Positions 24,772 to 46,743 of a stretch of DNA of 64,000 nt are shown piece by piece. Below the pieces are notes generated by a model, which was given only the letters and a program-made list of their open reading frames with translations, was not told the DNA's origin and searched no databases. The position numbers were made by a program, and so were the translations under genes. The stretch is taken from IMG/VR virus record IMGVR_UViG_3300009000_000003. One strand, 5' to 3'. How positions within the stretch are numbered: the stretch's first letter is position 1; each line of letters begins with the position of its first letter. The DNA comes from a virus.

Positions 24772-25089
24772 TTATATATTATCTTTTGTAGAAAAAATAT
24801 CTATTTCTTTAGTAAATAATAAATCAATTGGGAGCATTTGATTATTAGAAGACATAAATTTATGGTCTTCTGTACAATCAACATAATCTCCATTTTCTAA
24901 AGTGTATCTGTAAACAGTTTTAATACCTTTATCGTGCCATTGAGTGACTTGTTGAGCAACCCAAGGGGTAGCTTGAGTTGAATCATTACTAAGTACAAAA
25001 CCAGAATATTGAGCTTTAACAATATCTTCAATAGTTCTAGATCTTTTTGTAAGAGTAGGAATTAATATTTCGGTATTTCCTGCTAAACA
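24772..25089 (-). mobile_element. Split intein, N-terminal half (IntN)
   Basis: Cys1 in CLAGNTEI; block B CTEDHKF; QWHDKG; QMLPID; stop codon follows with no endonuclease domain. Confidence 0.95.
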
Positions 25090-26388
25090 ATAATCAGCAA
25101 AACCTAAAATATCTTTCCAAAGATCTTTAGCATAGTCAGATAACAAGCCACCTACTTTTACAGAATTTTCTATAAATTTTTCTTCATATTTTTCAAGAAC
25201 GGAAAGTTTTTTCTTACCCATAGCTCGTCGAACATCATCTGCTTCTTGTTGAGTAAAACCTGCTAAATCGGTAAATAATTTCATAATTTGTTCCTGATAT
25301 ATTAAAGTCCAATAAGAAGCTTTTAGAATTTCAGCAACTTGAAGAGGTAAATCTTCAGGCGGAGAATTATTTAATTTATTAGCAATATAAGTTTTATCAA
25401 GACCAGCTTGCAAAGGGCCAGGGCGGTTGATAGCACTGATAGCACTAAGATCCTCTATGCTAGCGGGTTGTATGTCATTAATTAATCGTTTAGCGGTACC
25501 GGATGTTTCCATTTGAAAAATACCAGTTAAACAACCTAAATTTAAATATTTATAAGCTAACTCGTCGCCATCTGGTATAGAATAAGGCTCTAAATCTATG
25601 TTGTAATTTTGTTTAATTAAATTTTTACATTCTTTGATAATAGATAAAGTGTCAATACCTAAAAAATCAAACTTAATAAGCCCAAGCTCTTCACATTCAT
25701 CTTTATCATATTGAGTAATTCTTTCTGCTTTACTATTAGACCAAACAGGGACAGTATCATGTATTTCTTTATCTGAAATAATGACACCTGCTGCATGGAT
25801 GCCAAAATTAGCAACCATGTTTTCTATTCTATCAGCAAATTCTAAAAAAGCAGAATATCTTTGATCATCAGAAAGGTCGGGATTTTCTTCAAGAACTTCT
25901 TCTAAAGTAGGTTCTTTGCCATACTTAGGAGGAGGAAACATTTTTAATAACTCGTTAAGTTCAGAAGAATCACCTTCGTGTATTCTATAAAAAGAACGAG
26001 CTAATGATTTTGGTTTAAAAGTTCCATGAGTTATAATATTGGCAACTCTCTCACGCCCCCAATAATCAATGCACCATTGTATTGCTTTCTCTCTATCTAA
26101 AGCATCATGGTCTATATCAATATCGGGAGTCGCACCCCCAATAGTATCTGATCTCATTTTATTAAAATCAAACACATCGGTAAGTCCAGTAATATAAAGT
26201 AAAATACTATTATATGGATTTTCTAAAAAAGAATGTTTAGACTGTAAACAAGATTCAATTCTGTCTAAATCTTCTAAAGAAATCATAGCAACTTCTTGAT
26301 GGAGAAAATCTGGATCTACTTTTTGATAACGATCTTCAATAATATAAGAATCTATTTCTTTTAAAAAAGTTTCTCGAGATTTAAACAT
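24772..26388 (-). CDS. dnaE: DNA polymerase III alpha, catalytic core, ending in split intein N-half (105 aa)
   Basis: PDIDID, GIHAAGV, KFDFLG, GIFQME, NRPGP, YQEQ, RRAMGKK; GFADY|CLAGNTEI. Confidence 0.95.
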   Translation of the reverse strand: MFKSRETFLKEIDSYIIEDRYQKVDPDFLHQEVAMISLEDLDRIESCLQSKHSFLENPYNSILLYITGLTDVFDFNKMRSDTIGGATPDIDIDHDALDREKAIQWCIDYWGRERVANIITHGTFKPKSLARSFYRIHEGDSSELNELLKMFPPPKYGKEPTLEEVLEENPDLSDDQRYSAFLEFADRIENMVANFGIHAAGVIISDKEIHDTVPVWSNSKAERITQYDKDECEELGLIKFDFLGIDTLSIIKECKNLIKQNYNIDLEPYSIPDGDELAYKYLNLGCLTGIFQMETSGTAKRLINDIQPASIEDLSAISAINRPGPLQAGLDKTYIANKLNNSPPEDLPLQVAEILKASYWTLIYQEQIMKLFTDLAGFTQQEADDVRRAMGKKKLSVLEKYEEKFIENSVKVGGLLSDYAKDLWKDILGFADYCLAGNTEILIPTLTKRSRTIEDIVKAQYSGFVLSNDSTQATPWVAQQVTQWHDKGIKTVYRYTLENGDYVDCTEDHKFMSSNNQMLPIDLLFTKEIDIFSTKDNI

Positions 26389-26803: not shown

Positions 26804-27031
26804 TTATCTTACAGATGTCCAATCTGTATAATTTGTAAAATCACATTTCATAATTTTAACATCAGTTCTCTGAGTTAATCTTCTGTAAGATCTAGCATCA
26901 GATCTAGTAGTGTGTAATGTCCTACCTTTAATAGTTATAGGTGTATTTGTCGTTTGATCGACAACAGCATAAAGAGTGGTAGCACAAGTATCTATAGGAG
27001 TAACTAGATTAGTCATAATTATTTCTTTCAA
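26804..27031 (-). CDS. Hypothetical protein
   Basis: ORF between dnaE pieces. Confidence 0.45.
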   Translation of the reverse strand: MKEIIMTNLVTPIDTCATTLYAVVDQTTNTPITIKGRTLHTTRSDARSYRRLTQRTDVKIMKCDFTNYTDWTSVR

Positions 27032-28338
27032 AAAGGTAAAGTAAACTGATCTGCTTGCTCAGCCATTTGTTTATTAAAAATAAGAGGGGTAGCAGCACGA
27101 CCCTCATTAAGAAAACGAGAAAACATAAGATCGTATTTAATTGGATCAATTTCAGTAATGCCTAAAGACCAGGCTACAAGAGAACCAGCAGCAGAACCTC
27201 GACCGGGCCCATGCATTACTCCATAATCTCTAGCACCATTCATAAATTGAGAAACAATTAACATATAATCAGAAAAACCCATACGTTTAATTACATTTAA
27301 TTCATGATCAAGCCTATCTCGATATTCTTGAGGAGGCATATCATTAAACCTATTGTATAAACCGTGTTGAGATTCTAAAGTAAGGAATTCAAAACTTTTA
27401 TAAGTTTCTGGAAGATCTTGAAACTTAGGATAACGGTTCATTCTATCCATAAAATAAGTTTCATTATCTATCAAATCAGCTACATGAACTGTATTAGATA
27501 TGACGTCGTAAGGCATATTTTGTTGGTTAGCTTCATTCCAAGTCCAATCATGAGATGCAAAATGAACATCTATTGGTCCGAAACTAAATCTTTTTTCATC
27601 AGAAAGTACAGTTTTAGTTTGCATACACAAAGCGGCTTCATGATGTTGTTTATCATGTTCATGAGTGTAATGACAATCACATGTAAGTACCATAGGTAAA
27701 TTATGTTTAGAAGCAATTTCTTGCAAAACTTTATTTACAGCTTGTTGCTCTTCATCTTTATGGAGTTGAAGTTCCACAAGAAATCTATCTTTAAACATTT
27801 CTTTATGATGTAAAATAAGATTTTCTGCGGCTTTTTTCTCACCCATAAGGATGAGTTGACTTGCTCTACTACCCAAACAAGTAGTGGTAGCAATAATACC
27901 TTCAGAATATTGAGCAATAAGAGCATCATCAATACGTGGTTTACGATACATACCTTCAGTATAAGCATAAGAACTGAGCTTCATGAGGTTATGTAAACCA
28001 ATATTATTTTGAGCTAACAAAATCAAATGATAATAAGACTTGCCTAAATGGTCAGGTTCTTTTGCAGTTCTATCATTTATAGTATAATAAGCTTCCATAC
28101 CGATAATTGGTTTTATATCTTGTTTTTTACATTCTTTATAAAATTTGTAACTACCTGATACATTACCATGATCTGTCATCGCTACAGCAGGCATACCCAT
28201 TTGTTTTGCATAAGCAGGAAGCCTATTAACTTTATTAATTCCATCTAAAAGACTATATTCTGTATGTACATGCAAATGCACATAAGGCTTTTCAGACGGA
28301 TTCTGATGTTGGTTTTGATGATTGCATGTCGTTGCCAT
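27028..28338 (-). CDS. dnaE: DNA polymerase III alpha, N-terminal PHP piece
   Basis: HLHVHTEYSLLDG, MTDHG, IGMEAY, DCHY, GPGRGSAAGSLV, FSRFLNEGR, then stop. Confidence 0.95.
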   Translation of the reverse strand: MATTCNHQNQHQNPSEKPYVHLHVHTEYSLLDGINKVNRLPAYAKQMGMPAVAMTDHGNVSGSYKFYKECKKQDIKPIIGMEAYYTINDRTAKEPDHLGKSYYHLILLAQNNIGLHNLMKLSSYAYTEGMYRKPRIDDALIAQYSEGIIATTTCLGSRASQLILMGEKKAAENLILHHKEMFKDRFLVELQLHKDEEQQAVNKVLQEIASKHNLPMVLTCDCHYTHEHDKQHHEAALCMQTKTVLSDEKRFSFGPIDVHFASHDWTWNEANQQNMPYDVISNTVHVADLIDNETYFMDRMNRYPKFQDLPETYKSFEFLTLESQHGLYNRFNDMPPQEYRDRLDHELNVIKRMGFSDYMLIVSQFMNGARDYGVMHGPGRGSAAGSLVAWSLGITEIDPIKYDLMFSRFLNEGRAATPLIFNKQMAEQADQFTLPF

Positions 28339-35540: not shown

Positions 35541-36104
35541 CTATTGAGAGGTAAATTTCATTTCTACGGAAAGAGATAATCCAATTTGCTCAAATACTTT
35601 TCTAAGTTCAAGTAATGTATCGAATCTTTGTTTCCAAAAAGTCTTTACAATTCTTGCTGCTTTTTCTGCAGAAACTGTGTTGGATAAATAACTATCCGCC
35701 ATTCTTTCAATAACAGTTGCAGCTGGACGCTTTGCTCCCTTGGCTGCAAAATTTGAGACAATAATATTTATCAAATCACTTTTTTTAATACTATTGCCAC
35801 CACCTATAGCATCAACCATAGAAGAGGCAAGAGAATAATAATTTGAAGAAATTTGAATATTGTTAGCAAGCTTAGTTAAAAGAGCTCTAAATTTTAAAAT
35901 ATCAAGCTCTTTAACAGTAGGAACTTCAATCATAAGATCAGAAGCCCATTCATATAAGGTTTTATCATAAAAGATAAACTCTTTTATAAAGCTTTCAGTA
36001 ATAGCTGAGTAAGTTTCAGCACCAATTTTAAGCTCATCTACAAGCTCTTGAGCTTCAATATTTATAAGCTCAATAACTTTTTCTTCATTGGTTTCTGCTG
36101 TCAT
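35541..36104 (-). CDS. Hypothetical helical protein
   Basis: Likely start MTAETNEE overlapping the upstream stop. Confidence 0.5.
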   Translation of the reverse strand: MTAETNEEKVIELINIEAQELVDELKIGAETYSAITESFIKEFIFYDKTLYEWASDLMIEVPTVKELDILKFRALLTKLANNIQISSNYYSLASSMVDAIGGGNSIKKSDLINIIVSNFAAKGAKRPAATVIERMADSYLSNTVSAEKAARIVKTFWKQRFDTLLELRKVFEQIGLSLSVEMKFTSQ

Positions 36105-36517
36105 TAAAAGCCCCAAAGAGGTTTACGTTCGCGAGAAGTAACTGCACCGGGATCAGATTGTGCTGCAACCTCTCTAGCTGCGCTAACTTTAGCTTTAGAA
36201 GGAGCCGAAGATGCAGATGTAGCAGCTAGTGGGTCTGAAGTAGATGCATAAGAATTTAAAATAGAATCTTTAAGCTCTTTAGAGAAAGCTAAACCATCTT
36301 CATTCTTGAATCGAATATCATCAAAATATTTTTCGACTTTTTGACCATCTTCCATAATAGTACCTTTGTGGCTTGGAACAGATACAAAAAGACCATTAGA
36401 ACCTTGAATGATTTTAAAGCCGTCAATCTCCATGATATCGTCAATAATAACAGAAGCAATACCTTTAAGCTTTGATGCTGAATTAATTTTTCTTACATTA
36501 ATCGTATATGAAAACAT
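36104..36517 (-). CDS. spoVG: SpoVG-family nucleic-acid-binding protein
   Basis: KLKGIASVIID...IDGFKIIQGSNGLFVSVPS.K...YFD. Confidence 0.8.
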   Translation of the reverse strand: MFSYTINVRKINSASKLKGIASVIIDDIMEIDGFKIIQGSNGLFVSVPSHKGTIMEDGQKVEKYFDDIRFKNEDGLAFSKELKDSILNSYASTSDPLAATSASSAPSKAKVSAAREVAAQSDPGAVTSRERKPLWGF

Positions 36518-36795
36518 TATTTATCCTTAATAATTTCAACATTATTTTTTACTAAAAATAATTTATAATAATAGCCAACTAAAAAATATATAGAGAGTAA
36601 TTGTTTTAAAGTTAAATCATCGACTTTATCAAAATTTGCAAAATAAGAATTTAATTCTTTTACAAAAGCATCAATAACTTCTTGATCTTTTTGTTCTAAA
36701 TTTTCGTTTACATGCTTTAATAAGTTTAAAGTGAGCTGATTGAGATTTAAATTAAAAGAATCACCCTGAGAAGGAGAAACTTTAAATTTAAACAT
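36517..36795 (-). CDS. Hypothetical protein
   Basis: ORF in operon. Confidence 0.45.
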   Translation of the reverse strand: MFKFKVSPSQGDSFNLNLNQLTLNLLKHVNENLEQKDQEVIDAFVKELNSYFANFDKVDDLTLKQLLSIYFLVGYYYKLFLVKNNVEIIKDK

Positions 36796-36796
36796 A

Positions 36797-37225
36797 CTAC
36801 TGCCACCCTAACATTCGAGGAAGAGCAGCAGTAAATAATCTACCAAGAACTTGAAACTCTCCAGCAGATAAAGAAACAGAAACTCTTTTATCCCCTGAAG
36901 AAAGACCCATCATAAAAGTACCAGCATATTTACCTTCGCCAGGTGTAATAGTAAGCTTTTTGCCAGTACCATCATTATCATGATAAAAACTTCCCCACTT
37001 TGGGGAAGAAGGATCATCAAAAAATTGAGTTAAATCATTGATACCAAAAGCAAATGTAATCTTTTGATTTTTCCAATCATAAGATTTTTCTCCTTGAGAA
37101 GGAGCCATCTCTAAAAGCACCGCACCAGTTTTTTGAATTCTATTATTATCGTCTACTCTAGGAGGCAATAAAGTGAATTGAGCTGCTGCAGATTTTTTAT
37201 AAATGTTAAATGAAGTTGGATACAT
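36797..37225 (-). CDS. Whirly-family ssDNA-binding protein
   Basis: IYKKSAAA, LLEMAP, YDW, FYHD, GEFQVL...LPRMLGW match the motif order of plant Whirly; AAGGA RBS before ATG at 37225. Confidence 0.7.
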   Translation of the reverse strand: MYPTSFNIYKKSAAAQFTLLPPRVDDNNRIQKTGAVLLEMAPSQGEKSYDWKNQKITFAFGINDLTQFFDDPSSPKWGSFYHDNDGTGKKLTITPGEGKYAGTFMMGLSSGDKRVSVSLSAGEFQVLGRLFTAALPRMLGWQ

Positions 37226-38081
37226 TATTTTCCTTTTCCAAGTTATAATATTCGTCGGAAATTGATTCACAAAGATCAGCTAATACAGATCTATATTGTG
37301 AAGTTAAAGTTATTTGTGAAGTTGCTGTAGAATCTTTAAATGCATAAGATTCTAAAAAAATGTGTAAACCAGATTCCTTTTTTCTAAAAGGAGCATCTAT
37401 TTGACCTAAATCACCAAGGCAAATTAATTTACTTGTAGAAGCAACTCTAGAAACAATAGTTTTCATTGTATGGATATCTGCATTTTGACATTCATCAAAT
37501 ATAACAACTGAATTTTCTAAAGACATGCCTCTTGCTAATTCTACTGGAAGGTATTTTAACCTGTTGTTTTCAAGCATTTCGAATATAAAATGCTCAGCAT
37601 CTCTACCTAAAAGAGAGTTTATATGTACCATATAACTAGACATGATACCAGACATTTTATCGTTTACATCACCAGGTAAAATGCCCATAACATTAGATTT
37701 ACCTCCTACATATATAGAAGGTTTAATTAAAACAATATCTTTGTCATTTTTAAAATATTCATTTAAAGCGTAAGCTATAGAAAGCAAGGTTTTGCCAGTA
37801 CCAGCTTTTCCTAAAGCAACAGACATTAAAATATTTTTATCTAATAAGGAATCAATAAAAGCTTTTTGTTTAGAGTCTTTTGGTTTGATTCCTTGTAAAT
37901 CTTTATAAGATAAAAGAGTAAAGTATGGAGATTTATATTTAGCTAAAGCTGAAGAAGTAGAAGATTTTAAAACTAAATATTCATTTTCATCTGGTTCAAA
38001 ATCAAAAAAATCAGGTATTTTTAATTTCTTTTCTTTAAAAAATGAATCAATATAATTTTGGTCTATATGCAGATCTCTCAT
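37206..38081 (-). CDS. phoH: PhoH-like ATPase
   Basis: GKAGTGKT, GILPG, RGMSL, DECQN, GDLGQID. Confidence 0.92.
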   Translation of the reverse strand: MRDLHIDQNYIDSFFKEKKLKIPDFFDFEPDENEYLVLKSSTSSALAKYKSPYFTLLSYKDLQGIKPKDSKQKAFIDSLLDKNILMSVALGKAGTGKTLLSIAYALNEYFKNDKDIVLIKPSIYVGGKSNVMGILPGDVNDKMSGIMSSYMVHINSLLGRDAEHFIFEMLENNRLKYLPVELARGMSLENSVVIFDECQNADIHTMKTIVSRVASTSKLICLGDLGQIDAPFRKKESGLHIFLESYAFKDSTATSQITLTSQYRSVLADLCESISDEYYNLEKENNVSNFI

Positions 38082-38878: not shown

Positions 38879-39184
38879 TTAGTCTTTCTTCAAAGGAAAA
38901 AATAAGTAACTATCATTTTCCAAAATTAAAGCACCAGCAGTATTTTTTCTAAATTTATAATTAGATTCATAATCAGAATTTAGAAAATCATGTAACCAAA
39001 CTAAAGCTTCTTCTTTAGAAGGAAAAATATCAATAGTTAAAATATAATACCTTTTGGTATTAAGAAGTACAGGAGTATAATCGGGATAAGCTTCTAGCCA
39101 ATGAGAATCAGATTCTTTAGCAGCTAAATAAGCTTTTTTTCCTGATTCACCCCGGCTAATAATATAATCAGGAAGTGCGGGCAT
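38879..39184 (-). CDS. Hypothetical protein
   Basis: Coupled to the di-Ubl stop (TAATG). Confidence 0.5.
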   Translation of the reverse strand: MPALPDYIISRGESGKKAYLAAKESDSHWLEAYPDYTPVLLNTKRYYILTIDIFPSKEEALVWLHDFLNSDYESNYKFRKNTAGALILENDSYLFFPLKKD

Positions 39185-39615
39185 TAAATATTGCCCTTAA
39201 CACTACCTGTAGCAAAAACTTCTGAATTTGGTGCAACAAGAGTTGCTTCCCATTGAGTTGCAGGGATGCCTGCACCATTAACAATGATATCTCTACCATG
39301 CAAATTCTCTTGGCAAACAAGTTCAGCAAGAGTCATAGTTTGAGAAACATTTACAACTCTGGCGCCAGGACCAGGGATAACAACTAAAGTAATCGTATCT
39401 TGATTACCTTTAACGCTGCCTGTAGCAAATATTTCTGCATTTTGAGAGATAAGGGTAGTCTCCCACTGTGATGCAGGAATTCCTGTACCATTAATAATAA
39501 TATCGCGGCCATGCAAATTCTCTTGACAAGCGAGCTGAGCAACAGTCATGTCGGGAGTAATAGTTACGGTGCGAGCACCAGGGCCAGGAATAACAACAAG
39601 TGTAACTGTAGACAT
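39184..39615 (-). CDS. Tandem di-ubiquitin-like (beta-grasp) precursor
   Basis: Two ~70 aa repeats each ending ATGSVKG|N; ThiS/MoaD/Ub-like pattern TVAQL..IIING; near an E1. Confidence 0.8.
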   Translation of the reverse strand: MSTVTLVVIPGPGARTVTITPDMTVAQLACQENLHGRDIIINGTGIPASQWETTLISQNAEIFATGSVKGNQDTITLVVIPGPGARVVNVSQTMTLAELVCQENLHGRDIIVNGAGIPATQWEATLVAPNSEVFATGSVKGNI

Positions 39616-39683
39616 AAATTAAATAAAATCCTAAAATAAGTTAAAATATTTTTTATTTAATTTTATTTTACTTTAATATATTT

Positions 39684-39971
39684 TTATTTTCCGCGAGGAG
39701 GATTATTACCACGGCTACCACCGCTTGGGCGGCCAGTAGTAGATGGACCATTCTTCATATTGCCTTTTACAGAACCAGTAGCAAAAATTTCTGAACCTGA
39801 AGCAATTAATGTTGTTGGAAAAGTATTTGGAGCAACACCTGATCCATCAACAATAATATCTCTTCCATGAAGATTTTCTTGAATAACAAGTTGTTCTACA
39901 GTCATGTCGGGAGTAATAGTTACAGTACGGGCTCCAGGCCCAGGAATAACGACTAAAGTAATTGTAGACAT
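39684..39971 (-). CDS. Ubiquitin-like protein with 25 aa C-terminal extension
   Basis: 70 aa unit ending ATGSVKG, followed by NMKNGPSTTGRPSGGSRGNNPPRGK. Confidence 0.8.
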   Translation of the reverse strand: MSTITLVVIPGPGARTVTITPDMTVEQLVIQENLHGRDIIVDGSGVAPNTFPTTLIASGSEIFATGSVKGNMKNGPSTTGRPSGGSRGNNPPRGK

Positions 39972-39984
39972 AAATTATAAATCC

Positions 39985-40179
39985 TTATTTATCAGTTTTT
40001 CTTTGGTTTCTAACAGCTTGAATGTCGCTGCGTAAAGTTTTACAGCTTGCTGCTGTTTTAGATAAAGCGACTCTAATACGGCGTCCAGCCGCGTCTTGAC
40101 CTCTTTCAAATTTATCTGCATCTTCTAAAGCAGAATTAAGAAGTTCAATCATATAGGTTAATGTTTCTTTAGCGTCCAT
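39985..40179 (-). CDS. Small histone H1-like (Hc1-type) nucleoid protein
   Basis: DADKFERGQDAAGRRIRVAL...K.LR motif; AAGGA RBS. Confidence 0.65.
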   Translation of the reverse strand: MDAKETLTYMIELLNSALEDADKFERGQDAAGRRIRVALSKTAASCKTLRSDIQAVRNQRKTDK

Positions 40180-40190
40180 AAAAATTTCCT

Positions 40191-40901
40191 TTATTTAAAG
40201 ACAGTTAGTTGAGAGTTGTTGAGGCTGAATATATGCTGACCATAATATTCAGATTTTTGTTGAGGGTTTCTATCTTCTGCAGCGTGCATACATAAAGCGT
40301 GTACGACATTAGAAGATACAATGTTAGTTAAAGTAGTAATAATTCTTTCGTTACAAGCAGATTCTGTAACTTCGTCATCAGACTTGAGAAGATCAACGAA
40401 ATTAGTCATCTTTTCTTTATTATCTGTTTTAATAATATTAAGAATAGCATGAGAGAAACCCATTTTAGTTTCAAACATAGTATGAACGAAAGGATGATAA
40501 ATTAAAGAAGAAGCTATTTCTTTTCTAGCAGATAATGAGTCAACAGCTACAAAAACGTAGTCTTCCAATTCTGATGAATGAGAAAGATCATTACCATCAA
40601 AAAAATGATTAAATGTTTGTACATTTACTTGAGGATTAAAAGTTTCTAATACTTCTTTAAGTGCAGTAACTTTAGGTTGACCAACATGAGAGAGATTGTA
40701 AACTTGGTTTGGTAAGTTATGAGACTCGACAATATCTGCATCCCAAATTTTAAAATTATGCCAACCCATTTTTGCAGCCAACAAAGCAACCCAGGAACCA
40801 GTTGCACCTGCACCAATAATATTTAAAAATTTACCAGAAGCATCTTCAGGACCAAAAAAAGCTCCATGGCGTAAAAAACTCACTTGATTAATAACTGACA
40901 T
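40191..40901 (-). CDS. ThiF/MoeB/E1-like adenylating enzyme
   Basis: IIGAGATGS, DADIVESHNLPNQ, PKV, VDSLSARK; lone C-terminal SAC. Confidence 0.9.
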   Translation of the reverse strand: MSVINQVSFLRHGAFFGPEDASGKFLNIIGAGATGSWVALLAAKMGWHNFKIWDADIVESHNLPNQVYNLSHVGQPKVTALKEVLETFNPQVNVQTFNHFFDGNDLSHSSELEDYVFVAVDSLSARKEIASSLIYHPFVHTMFETKMGFSHAILNIIKTDNKEKMTNFVDLLKSDDEVTESACNERIITTLTNIVSSNVVHALCMHAAEDRNPQQKSEYYGQHIFSLNNSQLTVFK

Positions 40902-40907
40902 ATTATT

Positions 40908-41963
40908 TTACGTTCCTAAGTAACTTAAAAAATCTTTTAAAGTTCTCTTATCTGTTAAATTTAAAACAAACATTAAATATTTAGAAAAATCATTTACAGT
41001 ATGATTGGTTTTTAAAAAATAGTTTTTAAATTCTTTTTTTAAATTAAAAGACTTATTAGAATTCAAATAATACTCTACTGAATCTGGGTCAAACATTTTA
41101 GATAATAAATGTTTATTATCATTTAAACTAAAGAAAAGCCATAACATTTCTTGTTCATCTAAATGGCCAGATAAAGTTTCATAATATTCTTCAGCTTTTG
41201 TACTATTTGTTTTAATAGTAGAAAGTTTACGTTTTCTTGGAAATAAATCTTTTATAATGTGTTCGGATACATCTAAATTTATATAAGTATCAGAAGTAGT
41301 ATGGGAATATTTATCTTCAGTATACCAAGAAGGATAATTAAAACCTGATTTATTTAATAAAGAAGATTTAGAGTTTTTGAAAGAATATGTTTTCTTTTTA
41401 AATTTAGTTTTTGCTGCTTCTTGAATGTAAGAAAGATCAAAATCACTTGTTTGAATAAAAGAAACACCTTCATAAATATTTTTTGTAGTTGGATCGTAAA
41501 CTCTAGAATAAAATTCATTTTGCTTATTAAAAATAAGCATAACTTGCCAAGTATCTTGTCCTTGATCAAGAGCTGATTGAATAAAAGAATTAAACTGATT
41601 TACATCCTGAAGGCTGGGAGAAACGCCCATGTTGTGGTGAGAATGACTCCAGCAAGTCATACTTTGAATAATACTATTAGTCTCTTCTAAAGAATGATCC
41701 TGCATAAGCTCTTTGTAAAAAGAAACCATCATTTGAGAATCAGTGTCAACTTCAGCAGCAGAACAATATTGCTCAGGAATGTATAACTGGTCTCCTAGGT
41801 TCAAATAAATATAATTATCATTAGTTGTGACATTGACAGTATTAAACCATTGAGCCTCTTGAGGGGCTAAATTAACAATAGTTTTTACAGATTCTAAATA
41901 TTTTTGATTTATTACTAATTTAATTTCTTTATTAATTAAAGAAAAAGTAGATACATTCTTCAT
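40908..41963 (-). CDS. JAB/MPN+ metalloisopeptidase (deubiquitinase-like)
   Basis: PQEAQW...WSHSHHNMGVSPSLQD fits E...HxH-x7-S-x2-D exactly. Confidence 0.85.
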   Translation of the reverse strand: MKNVSTFSLINKEIKLVINQKYLESVKTIVNLAPQEAQWFNTVNVTTNDNYIYLNLGDQLYIPEQYCSAAEVDTDSQMMVSFYKELMQDHSLEETNSIIQSMTCWSHSHHNMGVSPSLQDVNQFNSFIQSALDQGQDTWQVMLIFNKQNEFYSRVYDPTTKNIYEGVSFIQTSDFDLSYIQEAAKTKFKKKTYSFKNSKSSLLNKSGFNYPSWYTEDKYSHTTSDTYINLDVSEHIIKDLFPRKRKLSTIKTNSTKAEEYYETLSGHLDEQEMLWLFFSLNDNKHLLSKMFDPDSVEYYLNSNKSFNLKKEFKNYFLKTNHTVNDFSKYLMFVLNLTDKRTLKDFLSYLGT

Positions 41964-41973
41964 ATTGAATTAA

Positions 41974-44196
41974 TTACGTTTCATTCAAAGTGTTATAAGT
42001 AGCAAAGGGGACATAATTATTATTGTTTATTTGATCTTCTTGTAAATTATTTTGTTCTGGTTGGTCTGGAATATCTTGACTTTCTTCTGAATCTTCTTCA
42101 GTGAAAGAACTTAAAAAGTTATTGACGTCAGTATCAGTAACAATTTCTTTTTCAGATTCTAATTTCAAAGATAAAGGTTTTAACTCATTTGAAAAATAAA
42201 TATAATTAGAACCCCAAGGATCTGCAGAGTTGGCTGATCTAACCCAAGTCAAAGCAGACAAAAGAATTAACTTTAAATCATTTTGTTGAAATGCATTATA
42301 AATTAAAGGAGAAGCTTCTCCAAGACAAGCATTCGACCATTCAAATAAAGTGTCAATATTAGATGTACCACCAGTATGTGGATGGATATAGTAATACGCA
42401 TTACTTGAATTATAACCAAACAAAGAAGAATTATAAGCCAATTTAACTTTTAATCTATTTTGTGTAACCTGAATAAGATAAGGTCCGCCAAAAATTGATT
42501 GATTTTTATCTACGACTTTAATTTCTGCAGGGCAGTTTAACAAAAAAGTTACTTGTTTAATTTTATAATAATTTTTAGAAACATTTGTATAAAAATCAAT
42601 TTTATCTTGATCGGATAAATTATCAAAATTTTTAGTAGTTAAATCAAAATTATAATTTTGAGAATAATATTCTATTGAATGAATAAAAATATTTTCTTTA
42701 GTCAAATTATTTAAAAAATCATTAGTTTCAAAATTTTGATTTTCATAAGAAAGAGCTAAAGCTGAATTATAATTTGATTTAACTTGATTATATAAAGGAT
42801 AATTAGAAGATATATAATTGAAAGAATCAGATATAGTTTGAAAATTTTCTACAAGAGATTTTTTTTCAATATCAATTCGATCAATTGCTTTTTTTATTTC
42901 TTTAGCAAGACTTAAAAGAGAAGCCTTGTTTCTTCGTAAAGAAGATAAATTTGTTGCTAAATCAATTGATTTAATATTTGATTGATTGTTTTCAATTAAA
43001 GTTTTAAATTTATTAAACTTTTGCTCAAGTTTAAAATCTATTTTAGGTTTATTTAAAATAGAACTATTAATTTTTTTAGAAAAAGGCTCATATTCAGGAT
43101 TAGTAATTAAAAGCAAAGTATCAATTAAATGAGAAGGAATTTCTTCCAAATGGGTAGAAGAAAAAGCAGCAAGACTTTTGAGTTTTTCAGCTACAAGCTT
43201 ATTATACTCTTCTATATTAGTAAGTTTTAAACCATCATAATCAAATAATATATTAATTAAATCTTTAAAACGAGCTTTTGGATTTTTTCTATTTTCTACT
43301 TCATTTATAAGAGCATTAGAAATAAAAGAAAAAATATAACAATCTTTTTCATTTAAAGAAGAATCTAAATATTTCATCTTGAATAATACAGGAATTAAAC
43401 AAGTTTTTCTTTTAAGGGCTTGATTCTTAGTATAACTAGTAAATTCAATTTCTTTATCTTTTGACCTAGCAGACCAAGAAGGAACTTTCAAAACCTGAAG
43501 TCGGGAAGAATTTATTGAATCTAAATAAGATGTTAAATCAAAATCAAAAGCAAAATTTAATAAATTTAAAATATCAAATTTTTTATTTTTACTATTAATA
43601 GTTCTAGTAAAACTATTGTTTAATTTATATGTTCTAAAAGATGTATTTGAAATAATTTCTTCAGTAAAATAATCAGGATTAGCAATGTTTGCAGCATCAT
43701 AAATATTTTTAGAAAAAACAGAAAAAACAGGTTTGTCATTATAAGATGAAATTTGTTTTAAAGAATAATCAAAAATATTTATATCAAAAGTTTGTTCTTG
43801 ATTATTTTGTTTAAATAAAAAACATTTAATTAAATCTTGTTGAGAATATGTTTCTGAATTTAAAAGAAATAAATTATTTAATTCATCAGAAATTTCAGAA
43901 AAAGCAGTCGAGTCAGACCAACTATTTTCAAAATAATTGATTCCAGAAAGAAAAGAAGAATATCTGTTAACAAGAGTAAAAAAAGGAATTTTTTTTTCTA
44001 GAAACGAAGAGTAAGTAGATTTTAAACTATAAGGAAAATTATATAAAAACCAATCTTTAGTCTTACGATTATAATAAATATCTTTATTTAAAATTTCAAT
44101 AGAATTTAAATCTGAATTTAATTTAAAAAGATTGTTAATTTGAGAAAGCGTTTCAGGAGTGTAATCAGAAGTACAATAGTAATATTTTCTATTCAT
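41974..44196 (-). CDS. Large protein with coiled coil and C-terminal prokaryotic E2-like domain
   Basis: YIHPHT...NACLG...L...NSADPWG (HP..CLG of the UBC fold); adjacent to JAB and E1. Confidence 0.6.
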   Translation of the reverse strand: MNRKYYYCTSDYTPETLSQINNLFKLNSDLNSIEILNKDIYYNRKTKDWFLYNFPYSLKSTYSSFLEKKIPFFTLVNRYSSFLSGINYFENSWSDSTAFSEISDELNNLFLLNSETYSQQDLIKCFLFKQNNQEQTFDINIFDYSLKQISSYNDKPVFSVFSKNIYDAANIANPDYFTEEIISNTSFRTYKLNNSFTRTINSKNKKFDILNLLNFAFDFDLTSYLDSINSSRLQVLKVPSWSARSKDKEIEFTSYTKNQALKRKTCLIPVLFKMKYLDSSLNEKDCYIFSFISNALINEVENRKNPKARFKDLINILFDYDGLKLTNIEEYNKLVAEKLKSLAAFSSTHLEEIPSHLIDTLLLITNPEYEPFSKKINSSILNKPKIDFKLEQKFNKFKTLIENNQSNIKSIDLATNLSSLRRNKASLLSLAKEIKKAIDRIDIEKKSLVENFQTISDSFNYISSNYPLYNQVKSNYNSALALSYENQNFETNDFLNNLTKENIFIHSIEYYSQNYNFDLTTKNFDNLSDQDKIDFYTNVSKNYYKIKQVTFLLNCPAEIKVVDKNQSIFGGPYLIQVTQNRLKVKLAYNSSLFGYNSSNAYYYIHPHTGGTSNIDTLFEWSNACLGEASPLIYNAFQQNDLKLILLSALTWVRSANSADPWGSNYIYFSNELKPLSLKLESEKEIVTDTDVNNFLSSFTEEDSEESQDIPDQPEQNNLQEDQINNNNYVPFATYNTLNET

Positions 44197-44410
44197 TTAA
44201 ATGTTTAATAACCTTATTTAAAGTACGGATAGAATTAATAAAAAAATCATCATCAAAAGTTATTTGAAAATCATCTTCTACAATTAATGAATAATAATTA
44301 CACTCTTCGCAAATTCCAAATGGAGAATTAAAATCAATTGTTTTATATTCTTCATCAGTAAGTTGTCTCGAAAAAGCACATTCATCAAAAGAAAGACAAA
44401 TTATTTTCAT
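44189..44410 (-). CDS. Small Cys-containing (possible Zn-binding) protein
   Basis: C-x5-C ... CEEC. Confidence 0.45.
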   Translation of the reverse strand: MKIICLSFDECAFSRQLTDEEYKTIDFNSPFGICEECNYYSLIVEDDFQITFDDDFFINSIRTLNKVIKHLNE

Positions 44411-45143
44411 CTAAATAACTTTCATGTTTTTGATTAGTAAGTTGATCAATTATAGCTAACCACGAATTTAAGGAATCTTCCATCGTAACATCATTGTCGT
44501 AATAATCTTTACACAACTTTAAATTTTTAATTTCTTCATCATGAAGTAAATTTTCATTAATATACTTTTTAACATAATCTAATATTTCAATAGATTTTAA
44601 AGATAAAGAAAATTCATACCTAGTTAAATACTTTTGAACTCTAGAAAGTATTTGAGTAATTTTAGAAGCAATTTCTTGTTTGTTTTTTAAACCTTCAAGT
44701 TGAAAAGAACGAATATCTAATTCATCTTTAGACCAAGATTTAAAAGTATCTAATGAAGTATAGATATTATTATTGTGTATAGCTACTGAAGCATTAACGA
44801 AATCATGCTTATAAATTAATTCTTCAGGACTAATAAAATATTTTTTAATTAATTGACAATTTAAATTTAAAAAAGTATCAGCATTATCAGTAGATATAGG
44901 AGTTTCTATTTTAGATAATAGTGTAAAAGCTTTTTTATAATTCTCTTCAGATGCAAAATAAAAATCAATATCATGATATTCGCTAGAAGGAGAATAAACT
45001 AAATTAATCGCAAAAGAACCAGAAAGTATTGGTTCGCAATCAATTAAACCTGGAGCAATGGAATTTAACTTTTGTATGTATTTCGATATGACCTTATGAT
45101 GATAAGGTATAATCATATTATTAAGTGTCGAAATTTGTAACAA
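44385..45143 (-). CDS. Nucleotidyltransferase (CCA/poly(A) polymerase head-like)
   Basis: LSGSF...DIDFYF; HDFVNASVAI resembles RDFTINA. Confidence 0.65.
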   Translation of the reverse strand: MLQISTLNNMIIPYHHKVISKYIQKLNSIAPGLIDCEPILSGSFAINLVYSPSSEYHDIDFYFASEENYKKAFTLLSKIETPISTDNADTFLNLNCQLIKKYFISPEELIYKHDFVNASVAIHNNNIYTSLDTFKSWSKDELDIRSFQLEGLKNKQEIASKITQILSRVQKYLTRYEFSLSLKSIEILDYVKKYINENLLHDEEIKNLKLCKDYYDNDVTMEDSLNSWLAIIDQLTNQKHESYLDENNLSFF

Positions 45144-46743
45144 AGCCTATCCTTTTCTTAGAAATAGAAATATTTTTATTAAATTTTAAATGAGTTTTTA
45201 ATTTTATTTCATTTTTATAAGAAGAAGTTAAAATTTCTTTAGCTTTATTTCTTAAAAGTTTTTCTAGATGTTTTTTCATATCTCTTAAATTATAAGTTTT
45301 AGCAAAAAAATCTATAAGTTCTTGCTCTAAAATTAAATCATAAGAGTTCATATTGTATTTAGACAAAGCAGATTTAAATAAAAATTTAGTTAAAATAACT
45401 GTTTTTTCTTCAGTAGTATAATCTACAAAATTAATTTGAAGCATACGATCTAAAAGAGGCGCAGGTATATTAGATTTAAAATTAGATGTACAAATAAATA
45501 TGCATTTAGATAAATCTATAGGTATTTCTAAAAAACGATCAATAAATTTATCATTTTGTTCAGTATCTAAAAGTTCTAAAAGTGCTGCAAAAGGATCACC
45601 TTTATCTTTTGAAATTTTATCTATTTCATCTAAAAGTATAACAGGGTTTAAACTTTTAAGAGTAGACAAGCCTTGCACTATTCTACCTGGTTTAGAACCT
45701 ACATAAGTACGTCTATGGCCACGTATTTCTGATTCATCTGAAATCCCACCTAAAGATATATGTAAAAAATCTCTATCTGTAGATTCGGCTATTTGTTTTG
45801 CAATAGATGTTTTACCAGTGCCCGGCGGACCATCAAAAAGAAAAACTGCCCCATCTAAAGATTTTGTGAGCTCGTAAAGATAAAAGTATTCTAAAATAGA
45901 TTCTTTGACATCATCTAAACCATAATGTTTTTGGTTTAAATCTTTTTCTATTTGAAGTGTTTCTTTGTTAGATTGACGTAAAGTAGACCAAGGCAAATTA
46001 TCTAACAAATCAATATAATCTAATGTAGTTGAATATTCCGCAGAAGCGGTATTTATTTTTTCAAGACGAGTTCTTTCTTTAACATATTTTTCTTGAACAT
46101 ATTCTGGCCAAGATAAAAATCCAGATTCTTCAGAATCAATTACATCATTTTCGATAGATGAATGATCGTAAAGTAATAAAGTATCAAGTATGGCTTGGTA
46201 AATTAAAGTTCTTTTTTTAACTTGGCTTTCGGCTAAAAAGAATTCTAAATCATATGATAAAGCAGGAGTAAGATAAGCAAATATTTGATCATAAAGTGAC
46301 GTATCTTCTATTTCCATCAAAGGAACATTAGCGCGAAGATAATTAAAAGCGTCATGAACATTTAAAAAAGTTAATATTAAATTAAGTTCTTTAGTTTTTT
46401 TGATTTTTTTAAAATCAATAACATCAAATGTAACTAAATCATTAGAACATTCTTTTACATTAGTTACTTTATTTAAAGAATGAAAAACAATATTTATTTC
46501 TTTTTTGCTTTCTACCAATTCTATCAAACTGCAAAGTACAGAAAAATTTAAATATTTTTCCTTTGAAGTTATCCTTAAAATAAAAACATCTTTATAAGTA
46601 TTGGATTTATATTGATACTCGTCTGCTGTCAAAAAAATAAATTGCTTAGGCAATTTTCTTTTATCAAGATTAATTACATAATCATTTGCAGGATGAGGAA
46701 TAATATATTCTTCAGATATTTCAAAATAAGGTAAGCTGGACAT
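45121..46743 (-). CDS. Lon-type AAA+ ATPase lacking the protease domain
   Basis: LPW, HYGL..VKE, GPPGTGKTS, GHRRTYVG..PG, LLDEIDK, LLDRM; ends KKRIGF with no Ser-Lys protease domain. Confidence 0.9.
   Translation of the reverse strand: MSSLPYFEISEEYIIPHPANDYVINLDKRKLPKQFIFLTADEYQYKSNTYKDVFILRITSKEKYLNFSVLCSLIELVESKKEINIVFHSLNKVTNVKECSNDLVTFDVIDFKKIKKTKELNLILTFLNVHDAFNYLRANVPLMEIEDTSLYDQIFAYLTPALSYDLEFFLAESQVKKRTLIYQAILDTLLLYDHSSIENDVIDSEESGFLSWPEYVQEKYVKERTRLEKINTASAEYSTTLDYIDLLDNLPWSTLRQSNKETLQIEKDLNQKHYGLDDVKESILEYFYLYELTKSLDGAVFLFDGPPGTGKTSIAKQIAESTDRDFLHISLGGISDESEIRGHRRTYVGSKPGRIVQGLSTLKSLNPVILLDEIDKISKDKGDPFAALLELLDTEQNDKFIDRFLEIPIDLSKCIFICTSNFKSNIPAPLLDRMLQINFVDYTTEEKTVILTKFLFKSALSKYNMNSYDLILEQELIDFFAKTYNLRDMKKHLEKLLRNKAKEILTSSYKNEIKLKTHLKFNKNISISKKRIGFVTNFDT

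What the first reader, a model, noticed from the sequence alone, without database searches (positions are those of the whole stretch)
39184..44196. Phage-encoded ubiquitin-like conjugation system: E2-like, JAB, E1 and three Ubl units
Seen: one tightly packed minus-strand run encodes a 740 aa protein with C-terminal HPH..CLG, a JAB peptidase with an exact E..HxH-x7-S-x2-D motif, a ThiF/E1 enzyme, a histone-like protein, a Ubl with an extension and a tandem di-Ubl. Every Ubl ends VKG followed by extra residues, so JAB cleavage is needed to expose the Gly. No thiamine, molybdopterin or sulfur-transfer genes are nearby. Established: E1+E2+JAB+Ubl is the architecture of bacterial Bil/Bub and PRTRC-type systems, and of CBASS Cap2/Cap3 minus the Ubl; these are mostly known as host-encoded, with Bil conjugating Ubl to phage tail proteins. 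Inference: the phage runs its own ubiquitination pathway to tag host or phage proteins, or to jam or reverse host Ubl-based defences. Best candidate for an undescribed system in this window.
Basis: partly seen in the sequence, partly recalled or inferred. Interest (0 to 1): 0.93.

Follow-up and report, generated by a model that had tools for sequence, protein, structure and literature searches.

The report
Phage ubiquitin-like tagging cassette, poly-Ubl genes
A family of uncultured marine phages of about 160 kb carries genes for a ubiquitin-like tag made as capped, tandem or fused precursors, an activating enzyme, a trimming protease and a large probable transfer enzyme; such kits have so far been studied only as bacterial anti-phage defences.

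Summary

- **E1:** a 236-aa single-domain ThiF-type enzyme with an invariant crossover-loop Cys183.
- **Ubl units:** ThiS/SAMP2-like. Every unit in every relative ends in an invariant Lys-Gly-Asn. They occur as a single Ubl stopping right after Asn, as tandem arrays of 2-4 units, or fused to a conserved basic tail or an unknown domain. This resembles how eukaryotic ubiquitin genes are organised.
- **740-aa protein:** a poorly conserved N-terminal arm, a coiled coil and a conserved C-terminal domain with invariant HPH and CLGE motifs. An E2/UBC fold is supported only by topology and by ESM Atlas structure matches. No sequence profile detects it, and my fold searches were swamped by the coiled coil.

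The cassette is syntenic in 18 further distinct viral loci and is essentially confined to phages. Distant E2-like/JAB/E1 modules occur in crAss-like and Xanthomonas jumbo phages.

It fails the membership tests for Bil, Bub, Cap2/Cap3 and PRTRC. No sulfur-transfer partners are encoded.

My best reading is a phage-run Ubl conjugation system (confidence 0.6); its targets are unknown. This scan has noted phage-borne Ubl cassettes before on other DNA.

The parts
39184..39615 (-). Tandem di-Ubl precursor (143 aa): two ThiS-like beta-grasp units, each ending in SVKGN
   Evidence: It hits TIGR01683 ThiS at 2.1e-7. Of 30 family members, 24 hit ThiS (best 1.5e-7) and 3 hit SAMP2. K-G-N is invariant at the end of both units in all 30 members, and 8 of them stop right after Asn.
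39684..39971 (-). Single Ubl (residues 1-71, ending VKGN) fused to a conserved basic Gly/Arg-rich tail of 24 residues
   Evidence: In an alignment of 22 members, K69, G70 and N71 are invariant. The tail motif GRPSGGGRGNN is nearly invariant wherever a tail is present. More than 370 clusters at 90% identity belong to the family.
39985..40179 (-). Histone H1-like Hc1 protein (64 aa), inserted between the E1 and Ubl genes in one clade only
   Evidence: It hits Pfam Hc1 at 8.3e-8, 32.4 bits against a cut-off of 23.5. It is present in 9 of the 18 other distinct loci. Where it is absent, a Ubl gene directly follows the E1.
40191..40901 (-). Minimal E1: a single ThiF-type adenylation domain (236 aa) with a catalytic-type Cys183 in the crossover-loop region
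   Evidence: It hits Pfam ThiF at 7.5e-25 and the E1 part of PADLOC Cap2-type E1-E2 models at up to 1.9e-15. Invariant in 18 sequences: R11, G30xG32xxG35, D54, D56, K77, D121, R126 and C183.
40908..41963 (-). JAB/JAMM (MPN+) metallopeptidase domain (residues about 10-187) plus a C-terminal helical domain (226-351) of unknown role
42187..42699 (-). C-terminal E2/UBC-like domain of the 740-aa protein (residues about 500-670), with invariant HPH605-607, C624-LGE and ANSxDxWG
   Evidence: pLDDT is 80-93. The order of elements is helix, beta-meander, HPH, loop, Cys, then two helices. ESM Atlas structure rows give TM 0.51 to PRTRC protein B (Prok-E2_D) and 0.44-0.45 to UBC/UQ_con clusters. The domain has 205 representative relatives at 50% clustering. 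Mean pairwise identity is 48% here against 18% in the N-terminal arm.
41974..44196 (-). Whole 740-aa protein: a variable N-terminal arm (1-380), a coiled coil (382-488), the E2-like domain, and an acidic tail with a conserved Y-x-P-[FY] motif
   Evidence: Homologues are 700-1150 aa long, and the length variation lies in the N-terminal arm.
44189..44410 (-). Small protein (73 aa) with four invariant Cys (C5, C11, C34, C37), probably a zinc ribbon; its gene overlaps the start of the 740-aa gene
   Evidence: Alignment of 12 homologues. A homologue was found upstream of the large gene in 11 of the 18 other distinct loci (10 by BLASTP, plus L004 by alignment).
44385..45143 (-). 252-aa protein with a pol-beta-type nucleotidyltransferase signature (G42, D58xD60, D114 invariant); homologues carry a precomputed Pfam Gad2 hit
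   Evidence: Alignment of 16 homologues. PF26128 Gad2 is recorded on the homologues in L004 and L002, but the local Pfam copy did not reproduce it. A homologue is present in 16 of the 18 other distinct loci.
45121..46743 (-). Lon-like AAA+ ATPase without a protease domain; an accessory neighbour, not a core part
   Evidence: It matches TIGR00763 Lon positions 133-576 of 795 at 1.8e-105. It is adjacent in the window and in 12 of the 18 other distinct loci. It is absent at E <= 1e-10 from two complete related genomes that carry the cassette.
38879..39184 (-). Conserved 101-aa protein of unknown function; its start codon overlaps the di-Ubl stop
   Evidence: Homologues follow the Ubl genes in L002, L006, L008 and L014. 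It has no family hit in any of the four libraries.

Best explanation
This is a phage-encoded ubiquitin-like protein conjugation system, with steps marked as shown or inferred.

1. The Ubl is translated only in blocked forms. These are Ubl-Asn, head-to-tail arrays of Ubl units, or Ubl fused to a basic tail or another domain (shown from sequence).
2. The JAB metallopeptidase cuts after the invariant Lys-Gly and before the invariant Asn. This releases Ubl monomers with a free C-terminal Gly, plus the fused cargo (inferred by analogy with BubCD, HvJAMM1, QbsD and eukaryotic DUBs).
3. The minimal E1, presumably a homodimer, adenylates that Gly and takes it onto Cys183 as a thioester (inferred from invariant residues).
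4. The Ubl passes to Cys624 of the E2-like domain of the large protein (inferred).
5. The fast-evolving N-terminal arm and coiled coil of that protein choose the target, so it would act as an E2 with a built-in E3-like part. The Ubl ends up on a lysine of a host or phage protein (inferred; targets unknown).

The 4-Cys protein and the NTase-like protein encoded just upstream probably assist or regulate the system. The Lon-like ATPase and the Hc1 protein are optional additions.
For: - The JAB fold and active site are confirmed.
- The E1 is ThiF-type. Its nucleotide-binding, Mg-binding and Arg-finger positions and Cys183 are invariant.
- The Ubl belongs to the ThiS/SAMP2 class: 24 of 30 members hit ThiS.
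- KGN is invariant even at 25-31% identity, and most stand-alone Ubls stop right after Asn.
- Arrays of 2-4 units and fusions to cargo exist. This makes sense only if a peptidase frees each unit.
- The large protein has an invariant HP[H] then Cys pattern in an alpha/beta-meander/alpha domain. Four of the top six Atlas structure rows are E2 families.
- The N-arm averages 18% pairwise identity against 48% in the catalytic domain.
- The order large gene, JAB, E1, Ubl is fixed in all 18 other distinct viral loci examined.
- The same order of an H..C protein, a JAB and an E1 recurs in a crAss-like phage. A Xanthomonas jumbo phage has an IHPH-x13-CLG protein beside its E1.
- No rhodanese, PP-loop ATPase or NifS is encoded in the record or in two complete relatives. 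No ThiG or MoaE is encoded in the record.
Against: - No sequence method links the large protein to any E2 family. This covers Pfam on 50 members, NCBIfam, PADLOC, and hhalign against Bub E2 and Prok-E2_D.
- My own fold searches could not test the domain.
- The E1 is closest to sulfur-carrier ThiF models. It has Asn where ThiF/MoeB have the Arg of the NLxRQ motif (the comparison is from memory).
- The Ubl ends in Lys-Gly rather than Gly-Gly.
- The host could supply sulfur-relay enzymes, so their absence from the phage is weak evidence.
- No conjugate, target or expression data exist.
Confidence: 0.6

Rival explanations
1. Sulfur-carrier pathway. The Ubl would be a ThiS/MoaD-type carrier. JAB matures it (as QbsD does for QbsE, or Mec+ for CysO), the ThiF-type E1 adenylates it, and host sulfur-relay enzymes convert it to a thiocarboxylate. 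That would feed a thio-modification of tRNA, DNA or a small molecule during infection. The large protein would then have an unrelated or scaffolding role.
For: The best E1 models are ThiF/MoeB. The Ubl hits the ThiS model, and JGI annotates several members as ThiS. Cys183 sits where ThiF and MoeB have their crossover-loop Cys (positions of the known enzymes are from memory). JAB-trimmed sulfur carriers are established biology (QbsE/QbsD, CysO/Mec+; from knowledge).
Against: No sulfur-acceptor enzyme or sulfurtransferase was found in the record or in two complete relatives. Tandem arrays of up to four identical-type units and fusions to cargo are not a feature I know from sulfur carriers. The terminus is Lys-Gly, not Gly-Gly. 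A Cys/His enzyme-like protein is locked to the cassette in every locus.
Confidence: 0.15
2. E2-independent tagging, as in archaeal SAMP/UbaA. E1 alone would activate and conjugate the Ubl, and JAB would both mature and remove it. The large protein's Cys/His domain would not be an E2. It could instead be a thiol peptidase or deconjugating enzyme, an acyltransferase of a permuted papain-like type, or an adaptor.
For: No profile detects an E2. A His before a Cys that starts a helix is also the order seen in permuted NlpC/P60-LRAT enzymes (from knowledge). SAMPylation needs no E2 (from knowledge).
Against: The Atlas structure rows for residues 490-680 are E2/UBC families, and no papain-like cluster is in the top ten. 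The local pattern of a hydrophobic strand, HP-x, a loop and C-L-G/D resembles the classical E2 HPN...CLD pattern (E2 motif from knowledge). The gene is fixed next to JAB and E1.
Confidence: 0.15
3. Processing only. The Ubl units would serve as cleavable N-terminal carrier or chaperone modules that deliver the basic tail peptide or the fused domain, as in eukaryotic ubiquitin-ribosomal protein fusions. Conjugation would not be the point of the system.
For: The tail is more conserved than a throw-away propeptide should be. Other cargo domains are fused in L020, L021 and L030.
Against: This does not explain a conserved E1 with intact adenylation residues and Cys. It does not explain stand-alone Ubl-Asn genes with no cargo, which are the only Ubl form in a whole clade. 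It does not explain arrays with no cargo.
Confidence: 0.07

Closest known systems
Bil (BilABCD, types I/II; operon class 6d of Iyer et al. 2006), a bacterial anti-phage Ubl conjugation system (10.1101/2023.09.04.556158; PMC10557695)
   Different: [quoted passage not shown] Here the E1 is one 236-aa adenylation domain. Here the E2-like domain sits at the end of a 700-1150-aa protein and keeps an HP-x motif, which class 6d E2s lack (PMC1779556). The Ubl is made as capped, tandem or fused precursors. The system is encoded by the phage, not the host.
Bub (operon class 6E/DUF6527; PMC11601596, PMC11601603)
   Different: Bub works through Ser/Tyr oxyesters and lacks catalytic cysteines. It uses Ubl-E2, JAB-E1 or E2-E1 fusions and always has the BubE (DUF6527) serine protease. 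Here the Cys residues are invariant, the genes are separate and no DUF6527 was found. Only the last Bub beta-grasp domain is reactive, whereas here every repeat carries the KGN end.
Type II CBASS Cap2/Cap3 (operon class 6b)
   Different: Cap2 is an E2-E1 fusion and conjugates the CD-NTase itself, with no Ubl. Here there are dedicated Ubl genes, and the NTase-like protein hits no CD-NTase family.
PRTRC cassette of plasmids and ICEs (NCBIfam TIGR03734-03742; Pfam Prok-E2_D)
   Same: It is a mobile-element-borne set of a ThiF-type E1, an E2-like protein, a JAB and a small Ubl. The best Atlas structure match with a named family for the E2-like domain is PRTRC protein B (TM 0.51).
   Different: The E1 scores 24 bits against a cut-off of 145 for PRTRC_ThiF. 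No other PRTRC model hits. hhalign against a genuine Prok-E2_D protein gives nothing.
Archaeal SAMP/UbaA/HvJAMM1 and sulfur carriers trimmed by JAB (QbsE/QbsD, CysO/Mec+)
   Same: They combine ThiS/MoaD-like small proteins, a ThiF/MoeB-type single-domain E1 and a JAMM peptidase. The best fold match is PfJAMM1 in complex with SAMP2. Three di-Ubls hit the SAMP2 model.
   Different: Those systems have no E2-like partner, end in Gly-Gly, and double as sulfur carriers alongside dedicated sulfur-acceptor enzymes. None of those enzymes is encoded here.
Eukaryotic ubiquitin gene organisation (polyubiquitin with a capping residue; ubiquitin fused to basic ribosomal proteins); comparison from knowledge
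   Same: It has head-to-tail repeats that must be cut into monomers, one extra residue blocking the last Gly, and fusion of the modifier to a small basic polypeptide.
   Different: The Ubl here is ThiS-like rather than ubiquitin-like in sequence, and the processing enzyme is a JAMM metallopeptidase encoded in the same operon. The resemblance is probably convergent.

Membership tests
JAMM/MPN+ metallopeptidases | E...HxH-x7-S-x2-D zinc site on an MPN fold | tested here: met
ThiF/MoeB/E1 adenylating enzymes | Rossmann-type adenylation domain with a GxGxxG motif, Mg-binding Asp and Arg finger | tested here: met
   Pfam ThiF hits at 7.5e-25, 87.9 bits against a cut-off of 28.1. The key positions are invariant. 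One deviation: Asn65 replaces the Arg of the NLxRQ motif.
ThiS/MoaD/SAMP beta-grasp modifiers | Beta-grasp domain of about 65-75 residues ending in a reactive Gly | tested here: inconclusive
   TIGR01683 scores 31.1 bits, below its cut-off of 37.45, yet 24 of 30 members hit it at <= 0.001. Three members carry a precomputed PF02597 hit. No structure was predicted for the Ubl. The terminus is Lys-Gly followed by Asn, not Gly-Gly.
UBC/E2 superfamily (including the Prok-E2 families) | UBC fold: helix, four-strand meander, HPN-type loop, catalytic Cys, C-terminal helices | tested here: inconclusive
   The topology and the invariant HPH...C pattern fit. Atlas gives TM 0.51 to Prok-E2_D and 0.44-0.45 to UQ_con clusters. 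Foldseek and VIA on the 740-aa model reported only the coiled coil.
UBC/E2 superfamily (including the Prok-E2 families) | Match to a curated E2 sequence model | tested here: not met
   No UQ_con or Prok-E2 hit appears in 50 members at E <= 5. PF14460 finds nothing in the record. hhalign against two Bub-operon proteins at the E2 position (one annotated E2/UBC, one hypothetical) and one Prok-E2_D protein gives probability below 1%.
Bil (BilABCD) | E1 with IAD-AAD-CYS architecture (PMC10557695) | tested here: not met
   The E1 is 236 aa with one adenylation domain and no inserted CYS domain.
Bil (BilABCD) | Separate Ubl, E2, JAB and E1 genes in one operon | tested here: met
   with the caveat that the E2 is only E2-like.
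Bub (6E) | BubE/DUF6527 serine protease in the operon | tested here: not met
   None of the 17 proteins scanned between 35541 and 47107 hits DUF6527.
Bub (6E) | Fused Ubl-E2 plus JAB-E1, or E2-E1; catalysis without Cys | tested here: not met
   The genes are separate. Cys183 (E1) and Cys624 (E2-like) are invariant.
Type II CBASS (Cap2/Cap3) | E2-E1 fusion protein plus CD-NTase and effector, with no Ubl | tested here: not met
   E1 and the E2-like domain are on different proteins and Ubl genes are present. PADLOC hits cover only the E1 part of the Cap2-type models. The NTase-like protein has no CD-NTase hit.
PRTRC | NCBIfam PRTRC models A, B, C, ThiF and ParB above their cut-offs | tested here: not met
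   PRTRC_ThiF scores 24.3 bits against a cut-off of 144.75. No other PRTRC model hits.
Thiamine/molybdopterin sulfur-carrier pathways | Partner enzymes (ThiG, MoaE, rhodanese, NifS/IscS, PP-loop thiolase) encoded with the carrier | tested here: not met
   They are absent from the 73-kb record. Rhodanese, PP-loop and NifS families are also absent from two complete relatives. Host enzymes cannot be excluded.

The most novel reading that the evidence does not exclude
Phages of bacteria would run a true ubiquitin-style economy of their own. Polyubiquitin-like and fusion precursors are cut by an operon-encoded JAMM peptidase. A giant E2 with a rapidly evolving built-in targeting arm then tags chosen host proteins, for example defence or nucleoid proteins. 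In the many members that carry the protease-less Lon-like ATPase, tagged proteins would be handed to that unfoldase. That would be a viral analogue of ubiquitin-directed unfolding or degradation.
Probability: 0.15. Interest if true: 0.9.

Novelty: new variant of a known kind. Interest (0 to 1): 0.72.

Why it matters
Prokaryotic ubiquitin-like conjugation has been characterised only in cells, mostly as defence against phages (Bil, Cap2/Cap3, and probably Bub). A complete, conserved, phage-owned version would reverse that picture: the virus would be the one that tags.

- **Abundance:** hundreds of sequence clusters belong to these families, many from ocean metagenomes.
- **Unclassified components:** the JAB-plus-helical-domain protein, the giant E2-like protein and the KGN-ended Ubl hit no curated family above its cut-off.
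- **Precursor organisation:** capped monomers, tandem arrays and fusions to a basic peptide parallel eukaryotic ubiquitin genes. This gives a simple, testable case of convergent or ancestral logic.
- **Route to experiment:** distant modules in cultured crAss-like, Flavobacterium and Xanthomonas jumbo phages could be tested at the bench.

Tried and rejected
- **Fold searches on the large protein.** Foldseek against the PDB with the full 740-aa model gave nothing below E 0.1. VIA wide and VIA second-look searches returned only coiled-coil matches to residues 382-488. The E2-like domain was therefore effectively untested.
- **Profile searches of PDB sequences** with the large protein, JAB, Ubl, E2-like domain and NTase-like alignments gave no meaningful hit.
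- **Pfam on 50 large-protein relatives** gave only coiled-coil noise.
- **hhalign of the E2-like profile** against two Bub-operon proteins at the E2 position and one Prok-E2_D protein gave nothing.
- **hhalign against the Xanthomonas phage neighbours** gave only a 14-column HPH match. The shared HPH-x13-CLG motif was seen by eye.
- **GenBank phages.** Neither blastn of the cassette nor tblastn of the JAB found a match.
- **Single-sequence locus search** found nothing; the alignment-based search worked.
- **ESM Atlas** holds no model of the Ubl.
- **Local Pfam copy** did not reproduce the precomputed Gad2 hit on the NTase-like protein.
- **Promoter and terminator scan** showed no enrichment over shuffles.
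- **Lon-like ATPase and Hc1 as core parts:** considered and dropped. The ATPase is missing from two complete relatives, and Hc1 is missing from a whole clade.

Full report
**What is there.** The window is most of a 73-kb IMG/VR virus record that CheckV rates 45% complete. It is 29% G+C. It carries primase/helicase, a three-piece DnaE-type polymerase and a collagen-like tail fibre, so it is a tailed phage.

On the minus strand, from 46743 down to 38194, twelve genes follow one another almost without gaps. In order they are:
- a Lon-like AAA+ ATPase without a protease domain;
- a 252-aa protein;
- a 73-aa protein;
- the 740-aa protein;
- the 351-aa JAB;
- the 236-aa E1;
- a 64-aa Hc1 histone-like protein;
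- a 95-aa Ubl with a tail;
- a 143-aa di-Ubl;
- three small unknown proteins.

**JAB.** No curated model reaches significance; only PADLOC JAB gives E 0.012. The family, however, has more than 150 clusters at 90% identity. In 40 of them E36, H107, H109, S117 and D120 are invariant.

**E1.** Pfam ThiF hits at 7.5e-25. The nearest curated models are sulfur-carrier ThiF/MoeB, the E1 part of a 6A-MBL Cap2-type protein and the E1 part of PADLOC Cap2-type models.

Across 18 phage homologues these positions are invariant: the glycine-rich loop, D54/D56, K77, D121, R126, an N-terminal Arg11 and Cys183. Cys183 lies about 60 residues after the Mg-binding Asp, which is where ThiF and MoeB have their crossover-loop cysteine (positions of the known enzymes are from memory). 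The protein is a single adenylation domain. It is therefore of the ThiF/Uba5/Cap2 kind, not the IAD-AAD-CYS kind described for BilD (PMC10557695).

**Ubl.** The three units in the window are one DNA repeat family at 71-74% identity. The di-Ubl hits the ThiS model at 2.1e-7. Of 30 di-Ubl relatives, 24 hit ThiS and 3 hit SAMP2. A few members carry a precomputed Pfam ThiS hit.

The clearest result is the C-terminus. Lys-Gly-Asn is invariant in every unit of every member examined, down to 25-31% identity. In the clade with a single Ubl gene, the protein usually stops right after Asn.

Relatives carry arrays of two, three or four units. Some units are fused to a 24-28-residue basic tail whose GRPSGGGRGNN core is almost invariant. 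In three loci the fusion is to an unknown domain of about 100 residues. So the Gly is always blocked, and a peptidase is needed to free it.

This layout resembles eukaryotic polyubiquitin genes with their capping residue, and ubiquitin fused to basic ribosomal proteins (comparison from knowledge).

**The 740-aa protein.** It has 205 representative relatives at 50% clustering. Nearly all are 700-1150 aa long, with the conserved part at the C-terminus.

- Invariant residues are G571-P572, H605-P606-H607, C624-L-G-E-A, W651 and A655-N-S-x-D-x-W-G.
- In the model, residues 500-670 have pLDDT 80-93. They run helix, five-strand meander, HPH, loop, Cys at the start of a helix, then a second helix. 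Residues 382-488 form a long coiled coil, and residues 1-146 are unmodelled.
- Mean pairwise identity is 18% in the first 220 residues, with lengths of 214-388, against 48% in the C-terminal domain.
- The local pattern is a hydrophobic strand, H-P-x, a loop and C-L-G. Classical E2s have Y-H-P-N, eight residues, then C-L-D (from knowledge).
- The ESM Atlas structure search for residues 490-680 lists PRTRC protein B (Prok-E2_D) at TM 0.51. It also lists three UBC/UQ_con clusters at 0.44-0.45 among its top six rows.

That is the only fold-level evidence. Foldseek and VIA on my own full-length model were swamped by the coiled coil. No sequence profile sees an E2. I rate the E2-like fold at about 70-75%.

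**Upstream genes.** The 73-aa protein has four invariant cysteines (C-x5-C ... C-x2-C), and its gene overlaps the large gene. The 252-aa protein has invariant G42, D58-x-D60 and D114, which is a pol-beta nucleotidyltransferase pattern. Its homologues carry a precomputed Pfam Gad2 hit, which the local Pfam copy did not reproduce.

**Conservation.** An alignment-based scan of IMG/VR returned 19 loci, and look-ups of two homologues added more. After removing duplicates there are 18 distinct loci besides the window.

- In all of them the order large gene, JAB, E1, Ubl is kept.
- The NTase-like gene was detected upstream in 16 of them and the 4-Cys gene in 11.
- The PhoH, Whirly and SpoVG block follows downstream in nearly all.
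- Hc1 is present in one clade only.
- The Lon-like ATPase is adjacent in the window and in 12 of the 18, but is missing from two complete genomes of 158 and 162 kb that have the cassette.

Among 185,579 species genomes only two MAG contigs carry the JAB family. One of them is a 158-kb contig that looks like a mis-binned phage. GenBank phages have no close relative.

The E1 does find distant homologues in crAss-like, Flavobacterium and Xanthomonas/Erwinia jumbo phages. In a crAss-like genome the order is a 433-aa protein with H-S-H, 17 residues, then C; a 401-aa JAB; then E1. In Xanthomonas phage PhiXhv-15 an 892-aa protein with I-H-P-H, 13 residues, then C-L-G sits beside the E1. BFVD structure hits of the large protein include crAss-like and Flavobacterium phage proteins. 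The pairing of an H..C-domain protein with an E1 is thus a wider phage theme.

**Mechanism.** The simplest reading has four steps. JAB cuts Gly|Asn to free the Ubl. E1 adenylates the Gly and carries it on Cys183. Cys624 of the large protein takes it over. The variable arm then picks the lysine-bearing target. The sequence features are shown; every chemical step is inferred.

The main rival is a sulfur-carrier pathway. It is weakened by the arrays and fusions, by the Lys-Gly end, by the locked Cys/His partner, and by the absence of any sulfur-relay or acceptor enzyme in the record and in two complete relatives. It is not excluded, because the host could supply those enzymes.

Two further rivals are E2-independent, SAMP-like tagging, and a processing-only role for the Ubl as a carrier of the tail peptide.

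**Comparison and novelty.** The cassette works like Bil, but it fails Bil's E1 architecture. It fails Bub's fusions, oxyester chemistry and BubE. It fails Cap2's fusion and lack of a Ubl. It fails the PRTRC model cut-offs (PMC11601596, PMC10557695, PMC1779556).

I found no paper describing a phage-encoded E1/E2/JAB/Ubl set. The Bil preprints do not mention phage-encoded versions.

This scan has flagged phage-borne Ubl cassettes on other DNA. One of those notes also mentions distant crAss-like and jumbo-phage versions, which I confirmed here independently. What is particular to this family:
- the KGN cap;
- the poly-Ubl and fusion precursors;
- the giant E2-like protein with a variable arm;
- the co-conserved 4-Cys and NTase-like genes.

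I class it as a new variant of a known kind.

Noticed in passing
window 27028-28338, 24772-26388, 15154-16413 (all minus strand): A DnaE-type DNA polymerase is split collinearly over three genes (phrog_405 positions 30-443, 442-790 and 790-1062). The last two pieces are separated by about 8 kb that holds a 1107-aa gene and a tail-fibre gene. Other notes of this scan read a split intein here; I did not test that.
   Followed up: partly
window 20096-23947 (minus strand): A 1283-aa collagen-like tail-fibre protein (many PHROG tail-fibre families, best 5.9e-150). It raises local G+C to 0.52 in a 0.29 genome.
   Followed up: no
window 36104-38081 (minus strand): A block of PhoH (291 aa), a Whirly-family ssDNA-binding protein (Pfam 2e-13), a 92-aa unknown protein and SpoVG (Pfam 1.9e-13) follows the cassette. 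Most or all of it follows in every related locus.
   Followed up: partly
L021:13045-14196, L020:13137-13856, L030:11142-12077: Poly-Ubl genes with 4, 2 and 3 units whose last KGN is followed by a conserved domain of about 100 aa with no family hit. This would be a Ubl-fusion cargo of unknown function.
   Followed up: partly
L028:1238-3916 (Xanthomonas phage PhiXhv-15, PV764602.1): An 892-aa protein next to the phage's ThiF-like gene has I-H-P-H, 13 residues, then C-L-G, like the window's E2-like domain. It ends in a very Cys-rich tail. No JAB or Ubl was recognised beside it.
   Followed up: partly
L027:1373-4669 (crAss-like Bajarodcaudo virus 1, PQ006092.1): The gene order is a 433-aa protein (H-S-H, 17 residues, then C), a 401-aa JAB with an intact JAMM motif, then an E1. 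This is the same order as in the window, next to primase and uracil-DNA-glycosylase-like genes. No Ubl was identified.
   Followed up: partly
L030 (CAYOWH010000001.1, 158,217 bp, in a 'Bacteriovoracaceae' MAG): This contig has the size of the complete phage genomes of this group and carries the cassette. It is probably a phage genome binned into a bacterial MAG.
   Followed up: no
window 12775-13761 (minus strand): A 328-aa Cas4-domain/PD-(D/E)xK exonuclease-like protein (phrog_1706 at 4.1e-13) lies among the replication genes.
   Followed up: no
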